Positions 6,342 through 18,207 are shown, counted from the stretch's first letter. The stretch: 37,894 bases of DNA from Candidatus Methylomirabilota bacterium (GCA_046726415.1 JBKPAK010000226.1:1-37894); one strand, 5' to 3'. The notes: generated from the sequence alone by a model not told the origin. Translations and numbers: made by a program.

Positions 6342-8894
6342 TCATTCGTCGCGCAGGGCGGCCGGGAGGGACTGGTGCGCGACTCGCCGCGCGGGCGCCA
6401 GGCTCGCCAGCAGGGCCGCGCCTACCGCCAGGCCGAGTGCCTGCGCCAGCACCCCCGGAGCGACGTCCAGTTGGAGCGTCCAGCCGAAAGACCGTTGGTT
6501 GATGACGTGCACGAGAACGATGGAGAGGAGGATACCCACGGGAAGCGCGAGCACCCCCGCCACCAGCCCCATGAGAGCGCTTTGCCCGACGACGAGTCCC
6601 CCCACCTGGCCAGGGGTGAACCCCAGGGCGCGAAGCATTGCCAGCTCGCGCGCCCGCTCGAAGCCGAGCGCCATCAGGGCACTGAGCACACCGACGAACG
6701 CCACGACGGTGGCCAGCAGTCGCAGCACGATGGTCACCGCGAAGGTGCGATCGAACACGTGGAGAGAGGCCTCCCGCAGCGCCCGGTTGGAGCGGATCAG
6801 CACGTCCTGATTCGCGCCCGCCGCCCGCCGCAGCGCGTCGACGAGCGCGTCCACTTCGGTGCCGGGCGCCGCCGCGATACCCAGGGCGGAAATGGCCCGA
6901 TCGTCCCAGAGCGGCTCGAACGTCCTCCGGCTCATCATCACCACACCCTCGGGCGAGCCATAGTCGCGAAAGATGCCCACGATCGGGAAGTCGCGCTCTC
7001 CGCGATCAGTGCGCAAGCGGAGGCGCGAGCCGAGGCCCACGTTCCGGTGAAAGGCGAACGGCTCGGAGACGATCACCCCGCCCGCCTCGAAGCGCGGTCC
7101 GATCGTCGCCGCATCTCCGCGTATGAAGGCAAAGCTCCCGAGCGAGTGCGCTGCGATGTCGACGACGACCAGTGGCACGCTGCCCAGCGGCGACTCCACG
7201 CGCAGGGTGCGATTGGTGTTCACGCGAGCCGACCCTGGAACGGAGACGAGCCGCTCGACGAGCGCGGGATCGAGGGTCGAGTCCGGCCGGTTGCTGACGA
7301 GGCTTGGCGGCGAAACGTAGACATCGGACTGGAGCGTGGAATTCAGCCAGCGCATCACGGTCTGCCGGAAGCTTCCGATCATGATGCCGACGCCGACGGT
7401 GGTGGCGACGGCGATCATCAGGGCGGCGAGGGCCACGGATGTGCGGCTGAGCGCCGTCACCACCGAGCCGGCAGCCATCCGACCAGGGAGTCCGAACAGC
7501 CGGCCCATCGGGCCGCGGATGAGCCCCATGAACGCGATGGTGGCGATCGGTGTGAGAAGGGCGGTCCCGAGGAGCACGGCGAACAGGCCGGCGTAGGCGA
7601 CGCTCACCGGCGCGCGTGACCACAAGAGCAGGAGCGCGCCGGCGGCGAGCAATCCCACCCCGGCTCTGGCCAGTCGCGGCGCCGCGCGGCGCGCCCGGGT
7701 CTCGAGCACCGAGCGCCGGATCACGGCGCCAGGCGCGGTGACCGTGGCCTCGAGGGCAGGGGCCACCGCCGCGAGCAACGACCCACCCAGCCCCAGCGCG
7801 GCCGCCTTGGCCAGCGCGAGCGACGAGATCGCCAGATCACCGACGGCCAGCGTGACGTAGAGATCGTTGAGGGTTCGCTCGACCAGCTGAAGCATCCCCC
7901 GGGCGAGGAGGACGCCGAAGGGAAGTCCCAGAAGTGTCGCCGCGCCGCCCAACAGCGCGGCCTCCACCAGGACGAGCGCGAAGACTTCGCCGCGCGTGAC
8001 CCCGAGCGCGCGAAGCGTCCCCAGCAGCTCGCGGCGCTGGACGACCGAGAAGGTCACGGTGTTGTAGATGAGGAACAAGCCGACGACCAGCGCGAGCAAG
8101 CTCAGCGCCGTCAAGTTGATGGTGAACGCGCGCGTCATCTCTCCCACGGCCGAGGCGCGCGCGCCCGATCGCACCACCTGCGTACCGGCTGGCAGCAGAG
8201 AGGCCAGGCGCGCGAGCACGGCCTCTCCGGGCGGTCCGTTCGGAACGATGAGATCGATGCGGCTGAGCCGGCCCGTCTCTCCCAGCACTTCCTGCGCGGT
8301 GGCGATGTCCGTGACCAGCGTCGCCTCCAGGGCGCGCGCGCTCAACGCGTCGCGCGGCACCAGCTCACCGACGAGCGTCAGGTGGAGGCGAGCGGTACCC
8401 ACCCTGATGGCGAGGCGGTCGCCGCTCCGGAGGCCCAGACGTCGGGCGGTGTCACGGGTCACCAGGGCCGCGCCGGGACGAACGAGGAGTGCGGAGACGT
8501 CGGCGAGCGCCGGCTCCCCGCCACCTCCCACCAACGACCGGAAGGGAGCTTCGGCGAAGGGATCGATGCCCAGAAGGTGAAAGGTGGTGCCTGGGAAATC
8601 AGGCGCCGCCACCGCGCGCTCGACCACCGGCGCCGACGGGCGGATCCTCGCCTCGACGCGCAGCGTTCGGTAGAGGGCCTCGGGCACGCCGGAGGGGCCG
8701 CCGACGACCTGATGCGTGGCGCGCCCGCCAATGCTCTCCGCGAAGAGGGCAAACGAGCGCCGCGCGCTCTCGTTGGCGAGATCGACCGAGAGGGCTACCG
8801 CCACGCCGAGCGCGATGCCGACTACCGCCAGGCCGATCTGCCAGGGATGGCGCGCGAGGTGTCGCAGACTCGCTCGCCACAGCACGGCCCTCAT
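6342..8894 (-). CDS. ABC transporter permease, double FtsX/MacB-type (AttF/AttG-like)
   Basis: Two FtsX-like halves: SVVQRRELLGTLRALG and ERARELAMLRALG; INQRSFGWTL. Confidence 0.9.
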   Translation of the reverse strand: MRAVLWRASLRHLARHPWQIGLAVVGIALGVAVALSVDLANESARRSFALFAESIGGRATHQVVGGPSGVPEALYRTLRVEARIRPSAPVVERAVAAPDFPGTTFHLLGIDPFAEAPFRSLVGGGGEPALADVSALLVRPGAALVTRDTARRLGLRSGDRLAIRVGTARLHLTLVGELVPRDALSARALEATLVTDIATAQEVLGETGRLSRIDLIVPNGPPGEAVLARLASLLPAGTQVVRSGARASAVGEMTRAFTINLTALSLLALVVGLFLIYNTVTFSVVQRRELLGTLRALGVTRGEVFALVLVEAALLGGAATLLGLPFGVLLARGMLQLVERTLNDLYVTLAVGDLAISSLALAKAAALGLGGSLLAAVAPALEATVTAPGAVIRRSVLETRARRAAPRLARAGVGLLAAGALLLLWSRAPVSVAYAGLFAVLLGTALLTPIATIAFMGLIRGPMGRLFGLPGRMAAGSVVTALSRTSVALAALMIAVATTVGVGIMIGSFRQTVMRWLNSTLQSDVYVSPPSLVSNRPDSTLDPALVERLVSVPGSARVNTNRTLRVESPLGSVPLVVVDIAAHSLGSFAFIRGDAATIGPRFEAGGVIVSEPFAFHRNVGLGSRLRLRTDRGERDFPIVGIFRDYGSPEGVVMMSRRTFEPLWDDRAISALGIAAAPGTEVDALVDALRRAAGANQDVLIRSNRALREASLHVFDRTFAVTIVLRLLATVVAFVGVLSALMALGFERARELAMLRALGFTPGQVGGLVVGQSALMGLVAGVLALPVGILLSIVLVHVINQRSFGWTLQLDVAPGVLAQALGLAVGAALLASLAPARRVAHQSLPAALRDE

Positions 8895-9628
8895 CCGATC
8901 ACGCCGCCGTCCTTGAGCGTCAGCACGCGATCGGCCAGGCGCGCCACGTCGGTGCTATGGGTCACCACGATCACCGTCGTTCCCCGCGCGCGGCTCAGGC
9001 TGCTGAGCAGCGACAGCACGCGCTCCGCCGACTCCGTGTCCAGGTTGCCGGTGGGCTCGTCGGCCAGGACGAGCCGAGGATCGTGAGCCAGAGCCCTCGC
9101 CACAGCCACCCGCTGCTGCTCACCGCCGGAGAGGCGGTCGGGAAAGCTGGAGGCCCGGTCCGTCAGCGCGACCTGCCCGAGCAGTTCCTGGACCCGGGCT
9201 CTTGCCACCATGGCGTCGCGACCGAGCAGCGCCAGCGGCAACTGCAGATTCTCGGCCACGGTGAGGGTGGGCACGAGGTTGAAGAACTGGAAGATGAAGC
9301 CGATGTGACGCCGCCGGAAGAGGGTCCGCTCGCGCTCGCCGAGTCGCGTGATGGCCGTTCCCTCGATCAGCACCTCGCCGGCGGTGGGAGCGTCGATGCC
9401 GCTGACGAGGTTGAGCAAGGTGGACTTACCCGAGCCGCTTCGCCCGACGAGCACCGCAAACTCCCCGCGCCCGATGACCAGGTCCACGCCGCGCAGGACG
9501 ATGCGCTCGCCCTCGCCCTCGCGGTAGGTTCGCGAGACACCGCGCAGCTCCACGGCGTGCGCTGGGCCCTCGCGGTCAGGGCCCTCGGGGAGACCGGCAG
9601 GCGGGAGATCGGCAGCTCGACGGGCCAC
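8891..9628 (-). CDS. ABC transporter ATP-binding protein (LolD/AttE-like)
   Basis: Walker A GRSGSGKS, LSGGEQQR, ADEPTGNLD; 4-nt overlap with permease start. Confidence 0.95.
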   Translation of the reverse strand: MARRAADLPPAGLPEGPDREGPAHAVELRGVSRTYREGEGERIVLRGVDLVIGRGEFAVLVGRSGSGKSTLLNLVSGIDAPTAGEVLIEGTAITRLGERERTLFRRRHIGFIFQFFNLVPTLTVAENLQLPLALLGRDAMVARARVQELLGQVALTDRASSFPDRLSGGEQQRVAVARALAHDPRLVLADEPTGNLDTESAERVLSLLSSLSRARGTTVIVVTHSTDVARLADRVLTLKDGGVIG

Positions 9629-9643
9629 CAGCCAGAGAATACA

Positions 9644-10459
9644 TCACGCCGGAGGATTCGGAACCGGACTGGGATCGACCGGCGCGATGTCGCCCATGTC
9701 GGGCTCGAGCTGCAGCGTATCGGCGATCTTGGTGTAGCTCGAGAACATCTGGGTCACCCCGATGACTTCCATCACTCCCCGCTCGCCGACTCCGAGCCGG
9801 CGCATCTCGCCGAGATGAAAGCGCGTGCCAAAGCCCGAGCGCGTGGTGAGGGACACGGCAAAGGCGAGGGCCTCCTTGAATCGCCGCTCCAGCGTGTTGT
9901 CGGCGAAGGCCCGTCGCACGGCCGCCCACAGATCGGCGGCGTAGCCCGCGTCGTGAGCCATCAGGCGTAGTGGCAGCGGCACCACGCCGCCATAGAACTC
10001 GCGCACTTCGGCGAAGAGCGCGCACACCTCGGACGGAGGGTCAGTTTCGTCTACGGCGGTCAGGAGCGGCGGGCCGCCGTCAGCGGCGAGCCCATCCGCG
10101 ACCACGTTGAGGGCATTGGTCATGCCCACTGTGAACGCCGCCTCGTACCACCGCGCATCGCCCGTCATCCCCTGCAGCTTCCCGGCTGCAGTGTGGGCCT
10201 TCACTCAGTACTCGCAGGCGTTGACCCCACTCACCGCAGCCGCCACCATCTCCTTCTCGGCCCGACTGAATTCACCGGGCATCGCCGCGCGCTTCATGGC
10301 GCGGCCGTGGGGGCCACCGAAGCTGGGATCCCAGGCCATCACGCGGCTCATGGCGGGGGGCACGGGAAAGTCGTAGTCGAACCACTGCTTGGAGAGCTCG
10401 AACAGCTTTCGGGTCTTTTCCGGATACTCCGATTCGCTTCGCAGCCTGACCGTTGGCAT
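9644..10459 (-). CDS. AhpD/carboxymuconolactone decarboxylase-family selenoprotein (CxxU), two CMD repeats; Sec TGA at 10207-10205 (codon 85)
   Basis: ORFs 10205..10528 and 9644..10204 are contiguous in one frame: KEMVAAAVSGVNAC-E-Y-TGA-V-K-A-H, the AhpD CxxCxxxH motif; SECIS-like hairpin downstream; SD GGAGGGA upstream of ATG 10459. Confidence 0.85.
10172..10191 (-). promoter_or_regulatory. Putative bacterial SECIS element of the AhpD/CMD gene
   Basis: mRNA: UGA, 13 nt, then CUGCAGC-CGGGAA-GCUGCAG (7-bp perfect stem, G at loop position 2). Confidence 0.75.
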
Positions 10460-10591
10460 GGCGTCCCTCCGCACGACGGCGACTGATTGCCGACGCGACT
10501 TTACACCCGCCCGGCCAACGGCACTCATCGATCGGTGACGCCGGAGCTCGCGTCTTGTCGGGTCATCCCGTACCGTGCCCCGCCGTGCCGG

Positions 10592-11182
10592 TCAGCGCCG
10601 GGCGAGTTGGCCCACCTGTCGCCAGCGGTAGCAGTCGATGGTGTGGTCGTTCACCATGCCAACCGCCTGCATGAAGGCGTAGCAGATGGTGGGCCCTACA
10701 AAGCGGAAGCCGCGTTTCTGGAGATCCTTGCTCAGGGTTCGCGACTCCTCGGTCTCGGCCGGCAATTCCTTGAGCACCGGCCAGGCGTTCTGCCGAGGTC
10801 GGCCCCCCACGAAACTCCAGACGTAGGCGTCGAAGCTCCCATGCTCGCGCTGCACGGCGAGAAAGGCGCGGGCGTTGGCCACGGTGGCCTCGATCTTGGC
10901 GCGGTTGCGCACGATGGCCGGATCGACAAGCAGACGCGCCATGCGGGCTGCGGTGTAGCGCGCCACCCGGGCCGGATCGAAGCCGCCGAACGCTCGGCGG
11001 TAGCCGTCGCGCTTCCTCAGGATGGTGGCCCAACTCAGTCCGGCCTGGGCGCCCTCGAGGATGAGGAACTCGAACAGTGTGCGGTCGTCGTGAACGGGCA
11101 CCCCCCACTCCTCGTCGTGATAGACGATGTCGAGGGGGTCCCTGGCCCAGGCGCAGCGCGATCGCGTCGACGGCGCACTCAC
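10592..11182 (-). CDS. tag: DNA-3-methyladenine glycosylase I
   Basis: RCAW, YHDEEWGVPVHDD, LEGAQAGLSW, IVRNRAKI, GFRFVGPTICYAFMQAVGMVNDH. Confidence 0.95.
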   Translation of the reverse strand: MSAPSTRSRCAWARDPLDIVYHDEEWGVPVHDDRTLFEFLILEGAQAGLSWATILRKRDGYRRAFGGFDPARVARYTAARMARLLVDPAIVRNRAKIEATVANARAFLAVQREHGSFDAYVWSFVGGRPRQNAWPVLKELPAETEESRTLSKDLQKRGFRFVGPTICYAFMQAVGMVNDHTIDCYRWRQVGQLARR

Positions 11183-16815: not shown

Positions 16816-18207
16816 TCAGGGTACTCGGCGGAGGGGTTCGCCAATCGCCCTCCAGTACGGCAGGGCCACCGCCAGGACGACGAGCGCGGCCAGCACCGTC
16901 ATCCAGACGCCGAAGCGGAAGATCTCGGGCGCGCTCAGATGTCCGCGCTGGTACACGACCAGGGACGACGCGCTCTGGGCCGGATAGTAGAGGACAGCAT
17001 CACCGGCAATGGTGACTACGAGCCCGCACACGAGGGGATTGAGTCCGGTCACGGTGCCGATGGACATGGCCACGGGGATCGTCGTGGCGAGAAACCCGGT
17101 GATGTTGGGAATCACCAGGCGCACGAGCGCCGCCCCGGCGAGCAGGATTGCCACCACCAGAAGGGGACGCTGCCCGGCGGACGGTGTGGCCTGCACGATG
17201 AGCCCGGCCAGCCAGCCGCTCGCGCCGCTCTGCACCAGCGCATGGGCCAGCGAGAGCGACGAGGCAAGCACGAAGAAGTTCGCCCAGCCCACTCCGCGCT
17301 CGAAGTCGTTCCACGACAGCACGCCCACACCTGGCGCTAGCAGGCAGGCCCACGCCACCATCGCGGGGAGCGCCGGCGGAAGCGCGTCCGTCAACCAGAG
17401 AGCCGCGGCCCCCGCGGTGATGATCGCCGTCCGCCACTCCGGCGCCGAGAGCGGTTCCCAGCTAGCGACCGGGGTCACCGGCAGCGCCTCATCGAAGCCG
17501 CGCCGGTAGGTCAGATAGATCAGGAGAGCGCCGGCCAGCAGCAGCACGCCGTACGGCACACTCATCAGGGCAAACCATCGCGTCCAGGAAATGCCGCCGA
17601 TCAGCCCGGCCGCCACGATGGGCGTGATACCTCCCGTGAGCAGTATCGTCGACGCCAGGCGGTTGATGGAGTTGAGGGCCATCATGACGGCGCGAGCGAT
17701 CGGCGCGCCGGGTGGCACGCCACTCAGCGCGAGGGCCTGGTCGTAGACGTGGACGAGGATGCCCGTGCGCGTGGTCGCCGAGGGCAGGAGGAGCGTGAGC
17801 AACGGGAAGGCGGCCAGGAGTTGCACGTAGAGCGCGTGGGGACGGCCACGACAGCCGCGGAGGAATGCGCGGGCCACCCGCTCCGCCAGCCCACTGTGGG
17901 AGACGGCCAGCCCGATGGTCAGGACGCCAATCAAGAAACACGCGATCGGATCCGCGAAGCCGATCAGCGCCTCGCGCATGCCGGGCACGGCCCGGAACAC
18001 GACGAGCGCGATCACGACTACCACACCGGTCACCCCGGCCGGGAGCGTCTCGGTACCCCAGAGCGCGACGGCGAGGGCGGCCACGGCGAGAACGCGCTGC
18101 CCCTCCGGCGAGAGGTCCTCCGGCCGCGGCAACAACAGCATCAACGCACACGGGCCCGCCACCACGAGTGCGCGAACCGCCCACCAACGCACCCCGTCCC
18201 GTCGCAT
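16816..18207 (-). CDS. SLC13/DASS family anion transporter
   Basis: LWGTETLP, GFADP, SGLAERVA, LPSATTR; many TM segments. Confidence 0.8.
   Translation of the reverse strand: MRRDGVRWWAVRALVVAGPCALMLLLPRPEDLSPEGQRVLAVAALAVALWGTETLPAGVTGVVVVIALVVFRAVPGMREALIGFADPIACFLIGVLTIGLAVSHSGLAERVARAFLRGCRGRPHALYVQLLAAFPLLTLLLPSATTRTGILVHVYDQALALSGVPPGAPIARAVMMALNSINRLASTILLTGGITPIVAAGLIGGISWTRWFALMSVPYGVLLLAGALLIYLTYRRGFDEALPVTPVASWEPLSAPEWRTAIITAGAAALWLTDALPPALPAMVAWACLLAPGVGVLSWNDFERGVGWANFFVLASSLSLAHALVQSGASGWLAGLIVQATPSAGQRPLLVVAILLAGAALVRLVIPNITGFLATTIPVAMSIGTVTGLNPLVCGLVVTIAGDAVLYYPAQSASSLVVYQRGHLSAPEIFRFGVWMTVLAALVVLAVALPYWRAIGEPLRRVP

What the first reader, a model, noticed from the sequence alone, without database searches (positions are those of the whole stretch)
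9644..10459. Second hidden selenoprotein: AhpD/CMD protein with CxxU and a degenerate second repeat
Seen: two ORFs abut in one frame across TGA, giving NAC-E-Y-U-V-K-A-H, and a perfect 7-bp hairpin (CUGCAGC/GCUGCAG) starts 13 nt later. The C-terminal half repeats the CMD helix (KEALAFAVSLTTRSGFGTRFH) but has S-G-F-G where CxxC would be. Known: AhpD uses CxxCxxxH, and AhpD-like proteins are a recognised selenoprotein class. Inference: a 271-aa protein with one Sec-active CMD repeat and one redox-inactive repeat.
Basis: partly seen in the sequence, partly recalled or inferred. Interest (0 to 1): 0.78.

Follow-up and report, generated by a model that had tools for sequence, protein, structure and literature searches.

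The report
Selenocysteine AhpD-like tandem-CMD redox protein
The apparent stop codon inside this gene almost certainly encodes selenocysteine at the active site of an AhpD-like redox protein, a long-known type of bacterial selenoprotein that databases here split into two fragments.

Summary
Observation and interpretation both hold. On the minus strand, ATG 10459 to the TGA stop at 9646-9644 is one 271-codon gene with an in-frame TGA at codon 85 (10207-10205), in the motif C82-E-Y-U85-V-K-A-H89.

- **Conserved TGA:** all 20 related loci I aligned have TGA at that position. In a 251-genome sample of the phylum, all 111 matches spanning the site contain exactly one TGA. The terminal stop, by contrast, varies between TGA and TAA/TAG.
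- **Cys in distant relatives:** 15 of 20 distant relatives (22-33% identity to the window protein) carry Cys there.
- **Hairpin:** the 17 nt GCAGC-CGGGAA-GCUGC, 15 nt after the UGA, are nearly invariant, including synonymous sites. No covariation is seen.
- **Sec machinery:** the genome has a selC-selA-selB cluster and selD.
- **One protein:** AlphaFold2 folds the read-through product as one all-helical protein (pLDDT 94.5).
- **Two repeats:** both halves pass Pfam CMD. The second has S-G-F-G-x-x-x-H where the first has C-E-Y-U-x-x-x-H, and S208, G211 and H215 are invariant in 20 of 20.

CxxU AhpD/CMD selenoproteins have been in print since 2005, so this is a new member of a known kind and a gene-model correction. 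No NCBIfam full-length model covers this clade, which was found only in the window's own order. Biochemical function is inferred only.

The parts
9644..10459 (-). Complete selenoprotein gene: 271 codons plus the terminal TGA stop (9646-9644)
   Evidence: Translation with TGA=U. Orthologs align over residues 1-268/271 at 70-82% identity. AlphaFold2 gives one fold, pLDDT 94.5, pTM 0.92.
10465..10470 (-). Shine-Dalgarno-like GGAGGG, 5 nt upstream of ATG 10459
   Evidence: Read from the sequence. All 20 aligned homologs start at the equivalent M(P/A/T/E)xVR position.
10205..10207 (-). In-frame UGA, codon 85, read as selenocysteine
   Evidence: TGA in 20 of 20 aligned loci. All 111 phylum matches that span the site have exactly one TGA. 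Cys is at the aligned position in 15 of 20 distant relatives.
10172..10191 (-). SECIS-like hairpin: 7-bp stem CUGCAGC/GCUGCAG with loop CGGGAA, starting 13 nt after the UGA. The conserved core is the inner 5 bp plus the loop (10174-10189).
   Evidence: the inner 5 pairs are kept in 20 of 20 (one varies A-U to G-U in 3). Codons 92, 93, 94 and 95 each use a single codon in 20 of 20. No covariation was seen. Other selenoprotein candidates in the genome have hairpins at the same distance.
10193..10252 (-). Catalytic motif E70-x11-C82-x2-U85-x3-H89 of the first CMD repeat
   Evidence: K69 is invariant; E70, C82, U/C85 and H89 are conserved in at least 90% of 33 sequences. TIGR00778 (AhpD core domain) scores 48.9 bits against a cut-off of 27.8 at residues 65-99.
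10070..10459 (-). N-terminal repeat (residues 1-130), Sec-bearing CMD domain
   Evidence: Pfam CMD 39.1 bits against a cut-off of 23 for this half alone. It matches PDB 2ouw over profile positions 1-130, E 3.3e-22, with TM 0.86 and rmsd 2.1 A.
9695..10069 (-). C-terminal repeat (residues 131-255), CMD domain without redox residues
   Evidence: Pfam CMD 28 bits against a cut-off of 23 for this half alone. It aligns to the N-terminal half at E 3e-6.
9815..9838 (-). Pseudo-site S208-G-F-G211-T-R-F-H215, which aligns with C82-E-Y-U85-V-K-A-H89
   Evidence: for the alignment. S208, G211 and H215 are invariant in 20 of 20.

Best explanation
This is one gene for a 271-residue selenoprotein of the AhpD/CMD (alkylhydroperoxidase D / carboxymuconolactone decarboxylase) superfamily. 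During translation, the UGA at codon 85 is decoded as selenocysteine. SelB carrying Sec-tRNA(Sec) would be recruited by the small hairpin that starts 13 nt downstream, inside the coding sequence. That hairpin also fixes the peptide A-A-G-K-L-Q (inferred). The protein is a single-chain pseudo-dimer of two CMD repeats. The first repeat carries the AhpD-type site E70...C82-x-x-U85-x-x-x-H89. I infer that the selenolate of U85 is the attacking nucleophile on an oxidised partner (a peroxiredoxin sulfenate or disulfide, or a peroxide). C82 would then resolve the adduct as a selenenylsulfide, with H89 and E70 relaying protons, and a dithiol donor would recycle the enzyme. The second repeat has no redox residues but keeps a conserved S-x-x-G-x-x-x-H, so its role is probably structural or in binding. 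Shown here: the gene structure, the conserved recoding signals, the Sec machinery, the Cys/Sec pairing and the fold. Inferred: actual selenium insertion, the substrate and the reductant.
For: Sec machinery in the same genome:
- SelA scores 517 bits and the SelB wing domain 68.7 bits, both on contig C313.
- tRNA-Sec lies beside them.
- SelD scores 335.6 bits and itself contains one TGA.

Conserved recoding:
- TGA sits at the same position in 20 of 20 aligned loci, in the context C-x-Y-U-x-x-x-H.
- In 251 genomes of the phylum, 114 places match at E <= 1e-20. All 111 that span codon 85 have exactly one TGA; the other 3 are partial and start at residue 135 or later (rows counted by eye).
- The true terminal stop is TGA in 11 and TAA/TAG in 9 of the same 20 loci.
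- Codon 86 is a possible start (GTG) in only 11 of 20, and codon 98 is ATG in only 12 of 20. A separate second gene therefore has no conserved start.

Cys/Sec pair:
- 15 of 20 distant relatives aligned have Cys at the position.

RNA-level constraint:
- Codons 92-95 use one codon each in 20 of 20, and codon 91 is GCA in 17 of 20.
- None of 27 other conserved Ala, Gly or Leu columns is limited to one codon, and none of the 12 other conserved Ala columns uses GCA.
- The peptide TAAGKLQG is present in all 20 Sec forms and absent from the Cys forms.

Family and fold:
- Pfam CMD 62.5 bits with 2 stretches; TIGR00778 passes its cut-off.
- AlphaFold2 pLDDT 94.5, with helix 83-95 running through the site.
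- Foldseek matches AhpD-like structures 2q0t, 6k40, 2prr, 2oyo, 2ouw and 1knc at probability 1.00.

Database pattern expected of a miscalled selenoprotein:
- The 120 best hits cover only 36-69% of the query.
- In one search, 16 representatives end exactly at residue 84 (counted by eye) and many begin at 86-87 or 98-99.
- Public records name the pieces 'hypothetical protein' (84 aa) and 'carboxymuconolactone decarboxylase family protein, partial'.
Against: - No compensatory base-pair change supports the hairpin: 0 of 7 pairs change on both sides.
- The two outer pairs are broken in 4 and 3 of 20 sequences.
- The 71-nt region folds no better than shuffles, z = -0.77.
- No Rfam family matches.
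- The invariant nucleotides could partly reflect protein constraint on A-A-G-K-L.
- There is no expression, proteomic or selenium-labelling evidence.
- No peroxiredoxin or other conserved partner gene lies beside the gene. Among 101 flanking ORFs from 16 loci, none hit AhpC-TSA and the neighbours differ between genera. The proposed substrate is therefore only an analogy to AhpD.
- The protein fails the cut-offs of every full-length AhpD-type NCBIfam model.
Confidence: 0.9

Rival explanations
1. Two separate genes. The TGA is a real stop, giving an 84-aa peptide, and an independent 174-186-aa CMD protein starts at GTG86 or ATG98. This is how public annotations call it.
For: Gene callers produce exactly these pieces. 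In the window, a GTG follows the TGA directly and an ATG lies at codon 98.
Against: The stop is never TAA or TAG in 20 of 20 loci, and all 111 spanning matches carry exactly one TGA, whereas the terminal stop varies. Neither candidate start is conserved: GTG86 in 11 of 20 and ATG98 in 12 of 20, and L025-L027 have neither. Splitting there would cut the CxxC-type motif and helix 83-95 of a confidently predicted single fold. Cys-containing relatives are single chains of about 250-275 aa.
Confidence: 0.04
2. The UGA is read through by something other than Sec: a Trp, Gly or Cys suppressor, or an alternative genetic code.
For: One database relative (P0163) is printed with W at the position.
Against: TGA ends this gene and 10 of the 19 aligned homologs, so it is an ordinary stop in this lineage. 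A complete Sec system is present. The position is the redox Cys of a CxxCxxxH motif and is followed by a conserved hairpin, which are the hallmarks of Sec. P0163 keeps the HTAAGKL hairpin peptide, so it is probably a Sec form translated with a TGA=W table (inference).
Confidence: 0.03
3. It is a genuine selenoprotein, but its chemistry is not AhpD-like peroxiredoxin or peroxide reduction. It may act on a small electrophile or a damaged metabolite, for example reductive dehalogenation as in the CMD-fold enzyme Bmp8, or detoxification of alkylating agents.
For: The CMD fold hosts varied chemistry. Foldseek also matches the debrominase Bmp8 (6ohi/6ohj, TMt 0.70-0.76) and D-2-haloacid dehalogenases by sequence. 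No peroxiredoxin gene is adjacent. The upstream same-strand neighbour is a DNA-alkylation glycosylase in four genera: Tag-like in the window and its congener L011 (the Tag name is my recalled reading of the ORF) and AlkZ-related in L018, L021 and L023.
Against: The exact AhpD-core motif passes TIGR00778. The best sequence and fold matches are the 'peroxidase-related' AhpD-core structures 2ouw, 2oyo, 6k40 and 2prr. The glycosylase neighbours are not conserved across most genera, so the association may be chance.
Confidence: 0.15
4. Pseudogene or assembly error: the TGA is a recent nonsense mutation or a sequencing artefact.
For: The genome is a fragmented assembly of 352 contigs with 4.66% contamination.
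Against: The same TGA occurs in independent assemblies from 35 genera. Both flanks stay at 70-82% protein identity.
Confidence: 0.01

Closest known systems
AhpD-like / CMD-like CxxU selenoproteins of bacteria. Sources: Zhang, Fomenko & Gladyshev 2005, PMC1088965; Zhang & Gladyshev 2008, PMC2398784 ('AhpD-like 1' COG2128 and 'AhpD-like 2' pfam02627); 2026 review PMC13188914, whose table lists TIGR01926, PF02627, NF041047 and NF041238 forms. I read passages only.
   Same: CMD/AhpD-core domain, CxxU motif with Sec in place of the second Cys, Cys-containing homologs, and a hairpin just downstream of the UGA.
   Different: This protein scores below the cut-offs of TIGR01926 (55.2 against 81.8) and NF041238 (30.9 against 175), and NF041047 is not among its hits. 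It is a 271-aa tandem of two CMD repeats with only the first redox-active. At 45% identity or more it was found only in the window's own order, and every such copy has the TGA.
Mycobacterium tuberculosis AhpD (PDB 1knc, 1gu9; TIGR00777)
   Same: All-helical fold (Foldseek probability 1.00, TMt 0.72-0.73). The Glu...Cys-x-x-Cys-x-x-x-His spacing is the same (E70/C82/U85/H89 here). The mapping to AhpD E118/C130/C133/H137, and C133 being the attacking residue, are recalled and not tested.
   Different: TIGR00777 scores 18.9 bits against a cut-off of 191.95. Structure-based identity is 12-15%. No ahpC is adjacent. The active site here is in the N-terminal repeat of a longer chain, and it carries Sec instead of Cys.
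Structural-genomics 'peroxidase-related / AhpD core' proteins 2ouw, 2oyo, 6k40 (Deinococcus radiodurans AhpD-like), 2prr, 2pfx and 3c1l, and the two-CMD protein 2q0t
   Same: These are the best sequence and fold matches. 2ouw matches at E 3.3e-22 over profile positions 1-130, with TMt 0.86 and rmsd 2.1 A. 2q0t (258-263 aa, two CMD units) is the best full-length fold match, TM 0.58-0.60.
   Different: All are Cys proteins. The 186-197-aa members are about 75-85 residues shorter than this protein, and sequence identity is 14-21%.
Uncharacterised Cys-containing tandem-CMD proteins from metagenomes (P0184, P0189, P0192, P0214 and others, 247-275 aa)
   Same: Same length and two-repeat architecture. 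C-x-Y-C-x-x-x-H is in repeat 1, and most lack the motif in repeat 2.
   Different: Only 22-29% identical. They have Cys instead of Sec, lack the TAAGKLQG hairpin-encoded peptide, and carry no source name in the records examined (two clusters, P0189 and P0201, looked up).

Membership tests
Bacterial selenoprotein (UGA decoded as Sec) | In-frame UGA conserved among orthologs, with homology continuing on both sides | tested here: met
   20 of 20 aligned loci. All 111 spanning matches in 251 genomes have exactly one TGA.
Bacterial selenoprotein (UGA decoded as Sec) | Cys at the aligned position in homologs | tested here: met
   15 of 20 distant relatives have Cys. The other five have G, W, S, E or a gap.
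Bacterial selenoprotein (UGA decoded as Sec) | SECIS stem-loop immediately downstream of the UGA | tested here: inconclusive
   A hairpin is present 13 nt after the UGA. Its core is nucleotide-invariant, with synonymous sites frozen, and its position matches other candidates in the genome. Against this, no pair shows compensatory change, the outer 2 pairs are not kept in one clade, and stability is no better than shuffles.
Bacterial selenoprotein (UGA decoded as Sec) | selA, selB, selC and selD in the genome | tested here: met
Bacterial selenoprotein (UGA decoded as Sec) | Selenium physically present in the protein | not testable with these tools
   Needs 75Se labelling or mass spectrometry.
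AhpD/CMD superfamily (Pfam PF02627; NCBIfam TIGR00778 AhpD core domain) | Profile match above the curated cut-off | tested here: met
   PF02627 scores 62.5 bits against 23, and each half passes alone at 39.1 and 28 bits. TIGR00778 scores 48.9 against 27.8.
AhpD/CMD superfamily (Pfam PF02627; NCBIfam TIGR00778 AhpD core domain) | All-helical AhpD-like fold | tested here: met
   The model has pLDDT 94.5 and 12 helices. Foldseek gives probability 1.00 to 2q0t, 6k40, 2prr, 2oyo, 2ouw and 1knc.
AhpD/CMD superfamily (Pfam PF02627; NCBIfam TIGR00778 AhpD core domain) | C-x-x-C-x-x-x-H redox motif with an upstream Glu | tested here: met
   E70-x11-C82-x2-U85-x3-H89, conserved in at least 90% of 33 sequences. 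It is met in repeat 1 only; repeat 2 has S-x-x-G-x-x-x-H.
AhpD proper (TIGR00777; partner of AhpC) | Subfamily profile above cut-off | tested here: not met
   18.9 bits against a cut-off of 191.95.
AhpD proper (TIGR00777; partner of AhpC) | Adjacent ahpC (peroxiredoxin) gene | tested here: not met
   None of 101 flanking ORFs of 170 aa or more, within 1.5 kb in 16 loci, hit AhpC-TSA. The window's neighbours are a Tag-like glycosylase and ABC transporter genes (names recalled from the ORFs; synteny).
TIGR01926 peroxidase-related enzyme (the 'AhpD-like protein' selenoprotein family of the 2026 review) | Profile above cut-off | tested here: not met
   55.2 bits against 81.8. It is the nearest full-length model, but this protein falls below its threshold.
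NF041238 AhpD_rel_CFYUT, NF041047 GSU3128 family, NF041537 ArsM/AhpD (seleno)proteins | Profile above cut-off | tested here: not met
   NF041238 scores 30.9 against 175 and NF041537 16.1 against 510. NF041047 is not among the hits at E <= 1.
4-carboxymuconolactone decarboxylase PcaC (TIGR02425) | Profile above cut-off | tested here: not met
   No hit for the window protein at E <= 1.

The most novel reading that the evidence does not exclude
This is an obligately Sec-dependent clade of tandem-CMD pseudo-dimers, so far seen only in one order of soil Methylomirabilota/Rokubacteria, and no named family covers it. No Cys ortholog above about 36% identity appears in 1.84 billion representatives. 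One repeat carries a CxxU site, and the other keeps a strictly conserved non-redox S-x-x-G-x-x-x-H pocket with a function of its own, such as substrate or partner binding. Its chemistry could then differ from AhpD, possibly linked to alkylation or electrophile stress, as the recurrent DNA-glycosylase neighbours hint.
Probability: 0.2. Interest if true: 0.45.

Novelty: new member of a known kind. Interest (0 to 1): 0.3.

Why it matters
Practically, this corrects a gene model. Public records split the family into an 84-aa 'hypothetical protein' and a 'partial' CMD protein, and no NCBIfam full-length model would rescue it. A dedicated model would fix over a hundred genomes in the sampled order.

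Biologically, it adds one more entry to the unusually large selenoproteome of Methylomirabilota/Rokubacteria. The 2026 review PMC13188914 (passage read) already cites a MAG of this phylum with 63 predicted selenoprotein genes.

The gene also illustrates cleanly how a coding-region SECIS freezes synonymous sites and a short peptide. It does not change what is known about Sec decoding or AhpD chemistry.

Tried and rejected
- **Rfam scan of 10080-10260 at E <= 10:** the only hit was a chance radC match on the opposite strand at 14.6 bits against a cut-off of 40. No SECIS family matched.
- **Covariation test of the hairpin:** uninformative because the stem is almost invariant.
- **Whole-region folding energy:** not distinguishable from shuffles.
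- **Operon partner:** synteny with the downstream ABC ATPase and permease holds only within the genus (L010, L011). Pfam on 101 flanking ORFs from 16 other loci showed no common neighbour. That set excluded L026, which had no ORF of 170 aa or more, and ORFs shorter than about 170 aa.
- **Earlier-findings look-up near the place:** returned nothing.
- **Genome-wide GC3 filter for in-frame TGAs:** gave 166 candidates. It is noisy, with many ordinary stop/start junctions, so I used it only to pick comparators by eye.
- **Rejected readings:** pseudogene, and a TGA=Trp code (see rivals).
- **Literature:** two searches, 'selenoprotein' + 'Rokubacteria' (1 paper, irrelevant) and 'Methylomirabilota' + 'selenoprotein' (3 papers), found no description of this particular tandem-CMD clade. 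Deng et al. 2026 (Cell Rep), cited by the review for the 63-selenoprotein MAG, was not among the hits of those searches and I did not try to open it. BSepDB's tables were not examined either. Either source may already list this family.
- **Not attempted:** RNA-seq or read mapping, complex prediction, and inspection of the model's active-site geometry (I did not try to retrieve the model coordinates).

Full report
**1. What is in the sequence**

The feature lies on the minus strand. ORF 10528..10205 and ORF 10204..9644 are in the same frame, separated only by the TGA at 10207-10205. The likely start is ATG 10459. GGAGGG lies 5 nt upstream of it (10470-10465), and all 20 aligned homologs begin at the equivalent position.

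Reading TGA as U gives 271 residues with ...VNAC82-E-Y-U85-V-K-A-H89.... Thirteen nucleotides after the UGA come CUGCAGC, the loop CGGGAA, and GCUGCAG, at 10191-10172.

**2. Is the TGA a selenocysteine codon?**

*Sec machinery.* The genome is 7.6 Mb in 352 contigs, and the window is contig C226. It has SelA at 517 bits, the SelB wing domain at 68.7 bits, and tRNA-Sec directly beside them on C313. SelD scores 335.6 bits and itself carries one in-frame TGA.

*Conservation of the TGA.*
- A six-frame search of 61 related genomes found full-length matches at 45-82% identity, each with one internal TGA.
- In the 20 loci I extracted (19 relatives plus the window), the TGA is at the same aligned codon in 20 of 20, always as C-x-Y-U-x-x-x-H.
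- A wider sample of 251 genomes of the phylum gave 114 places at E <= 1e-20. The 111 that span codon 85 each contain exactly one TGA. The 3 without one are fragments starting at residue 135 or later (rows counted by eye). I confirmed the position of the TGA only for the 20 aligned loci.
- The real terminal stop is TGA in 11 and TAA/TAG in 9 of those 20 loci. The internal codon is therefore constrained to TGA in a way an ordinary stop is not.
- A separate downstream gene would lack a conserved start. Codon 86 is GTG in 11 of 20 and codon 98 is ATG in 12 of 20; L025-L027 have neither.
- One of the 20 loci (L016) and one of the 111 matches come from genome G011, which is flagged unpublished. The counts are 19 of 19 and 110 of 110 without it.

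*Cys/Sec pairing.* In a search of 1.84 billion representatives, the close hits are fragments. Sixteen of the 150 listed end exactly at residue 84, and many start at 86-87 or 98-99 (counted by eye). The 120 best hits of the 5.8-billion-cluster search cover only 36-69% of the query.

I aligned 20 more distant representatives from that list, most of which span the site. Fifteen of them have Cys at position 85. The others have G (P0166), W (P0163), S (P0201), E (P0255) or a gap (P0153, which looks frameshifted). The Cys forms are single chains of about 250-275 aa, at 22-33% identity to the window protein.

**3. The hairpin**

In the alignment of 20 sequences, columns 25-41 (GCAGCCGGGAAGCUGCA) are invariant, apart from A-to-G at one stem position in 3 sequences. 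That change keeps a G-U pair.

The outer two pairs of the 7-bp stem are unpaired in 4 and 3 of 20 sequences. The conserved element is therefore a 5-bp stem with a 6-nt loop. No pair shows a compensatory change, so covariation neither supports nor opposes the structure. The region's folding energy is ordinary for this G+C content, z = -0.77.

The positive evidence is at synonymous sites:
- Codons 92-95 (GCC GGG AAG CUG) use a single codon in 20 of 20, and codon 91 is the otherwise unused GCA in 17 of 20.
- None of 27 other conserved Ala, Gly or Leu columns is restricted to one codon, and none of the 12 other conserved Ala columns uses GCA.
- The encoded peptide TAAGKLQG occurs in all 20 Sec forms but not in the Cys forms.

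Other selenoprotein candidates in the same genome have hairpins at a similar distance from their UGA. For SelD and five further CMD-type 'C-x-[YF]-U' genes on C15, C57, C106, C161 and C193, the stems start 11-13 nt after the UGA and are 7-9 bp long, and all but SelD's loop contain G. The 166-candidate list is noisy, and I chose these examples by eye.

**4. The protein**

*Family scores.*
- Pfam CMD (PF02627) scores 62.5 bits with two stretches.
- Each half passes on its own, at 39.1 and 28 bits against a cut-off of 23.
- TIGR00778 (AhpD core domain) passes at 48.9 against 27.8.
- Every full-length NCBIfam model fails: TIGR01926 at 55.2 against 81.8, NF041238 at 30.9 against 175, and TIGR00777 at 18.9 against 191.95.

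*Internal repeat.* The halves align to each other at 24% identity over 123 residues, E 3e-6. S208-G-F-G211-T-R-F-H215 falls opposite C82-E-Y-U85-V-K-A-H89. S208, G211 and H215 are invariant in 20 of 20. The second site is therefore redox-dead but conserved.

*Structure.* AlphaFold2 on a 33-sequence alignment gives pLDDT 94.5 and pTM 0.92, with 12 helices. Helix 83-95 starts at the CxxU motif and runs across the supposed gene boundary. Foldseek matches:
- The two-CMD protein 2q0t, TM 0.58-0.60.
- The 'peroxidase-related' AhpD-core structures 6k40, 2prr, 2oyo, 2pfx and 3c1l.
- 2ouw for the N-terminal half, TMt 0.86 and rmsd 2.1 A.
- M. tuberculosis AhpD 1knc/1gu9, TMt 0.72-0.73.
- The debrominase Bmp8.

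The profile-to-PDB sequence search agrees, with 2ouw at E 3.3e-22.

**5. Context**

Upstream on the same strand is a 196-aa ORF (10592-11182) that I read as DNA-3-methyladenine glycosylase I. That name is my recollection from the sequence; it was not scanned. Downstream, 15 nt after the stop, are an ABC ATPase (8891-9628) and an FtsX-type permease (6342-8894) (these names are also recalled).

This arrangement is kept only in the two congeneric genomes. In 16 other loci the neighbours differ:
- RidA upstream in 2 loci.
- An AlkZ-related glycosylase upstream in 3.
- A ferredoxin-thioredoxin-reductase beta chain in 1.
- Enolase-superfamily genes in 3.
- No peroxiredoxin in any.

The gene behaves as a stand-alone unit.

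**6. Distribution**

Matches occur in family f1 (102 of 158 genomes) and f4 (4 of 21), both in the window's own order. None occurs in the 71 genomes of the other 11 families sampled.

There are two sub-clades. One is at about 70-82% identity to the window protein. The other is at about 45-51%, with U-[TL]-V-A-H-[ST] after the Sec. Some genomes have both.

Source names on database members point to Candidatus Rokubacteria / Methylomirabilota. This agrees with earlier notes on this genome.

**7. Mechanism**

*Shown:* the gene structure, the recoding signals, the Sec machinery, the fold and the motif.

*Inferred:* SelB with Sec-tRNA(Sec) binds the hairpin and inserts Sec at codon 85. By analogy with AhpD, where the second Cys of the motif is the attacking residue (recalled, not tested here), the U85 selenolate attacks an oxidised partner or peroxide. 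C82 then forms a selenenylsulfide, H89 and E70 relay protons, and a dithiol donor recycles the site. Repeat 2 completes the pseudo-dimer and may bind substrate.

The substrate is unknown. I put about 0.9 on 'genuine Sec-containing AhpD-like oxidoreductase', and about 0.5 on peroxide or peroxiredoxin-linked chemistry specifically.

**8. Comparison with the literature**

- CxxU AhpD-like and CMD-domain selenoproteins were reported from the Sargasso Sea in 2005: 27 and 4 sequences (PMC1088965, passages read).
- The GOS data set reported AhpD-like 1 (COG2128) with 299 sequences and AhpD-like 2 (pfam02627) with 70 (PMC2398784, passages read).
- The table of a 2026 review lists four AhpD/CMD-type selenoprotein families and mentions a Methylomirabilota MAG with 63 predicted selenoprotein genes (PMC13188914, passages and reference list read).
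- BSepDB has an AhpD-like family page (PMC13326102, passages read).

The kind is therefore well known. What is particular here is the tandem architecture with one live and one conserved dead site, the apparent absence of close Cys orthologs, the lack of a curated full-length model, and the systematic mis-annotation.

**Verdict**

The finding is real and correctly interpreted. It is a new member of a known kind, of modest interest.

Noticed in passing
It is a 498-codon ORF with F-W-T-F-C-U-I-N-C. Pfam finds AhpC-TSA/Thioredoxin_8/Redoxin at the N-terminus and NHL repeats after it (109.5 bits). GGAGGAG lies upstream of the ATG, and a 7-bp hairpin starts 18 nt after the UGA.
   Followed up: partly
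window 10592-11182 (-); L018, L021 and L023 upstream ORFs: The gene just upstream on the same strand is a DNA-alkylation repair glycosylase in four genera. It is Tag-like in the window and its congener L011 (name recalled), and AlkZ-related (Pfam PF24741) in three other genera. This may be chance or a link to electrophile stress.
   Followed up: partly
G000 contigs C15 (-16773), C57 (+14553), C106 (+16860), C161 (+311), C193 (+26024); offsets are on the strand scanned, as printed: At least five further CMD/AhpD-type genes in this genome have an in-frame TGA in N-[GA]-C-x-[YF]-U. Each has a 7-9-bp hairpin starting 11-13 nt after the UGA.
   Followed up: partly
G000:C313, 28625-32915: tRNA-Sec (selC), selA and selB lie together on the minus strand of one contig. 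SelD on C223 is itself a selenoprotein candidate, with the context S-C-A-G-U-A-S-K.
   Followed up: yes
protein P0166 (252 aa, 36% identity): A full-length relative with Gly at the Sec position and Arg at the His position (A-C-Q-Y-G-T-R-S-R-T-A-A-G-R). It still shows a remnant of the hairpin-encoded T-A-A-G peptide. It looks like a Sec form that lost its active site.
   Followed up: no
L011:1438-2307 (-), residues about 125-165 of the ortholog in G001: The linker between the two repeats reads as an Arg/Gly/Ala-rich stretch unlike all other orthologs, and homology resumes after it. This is probably a pair of compensating frameshifts in that assembly.
   Followed up: no
window 16816-16818, - strand: The GC3 filter flagged a third in-frame TGA (context R-R-V-P-U-R-Q-E-R-P). 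It has no redox motif and no hairpin, so it is probably an ordinary stop followed by an in-frame gene.
   Followed up: no
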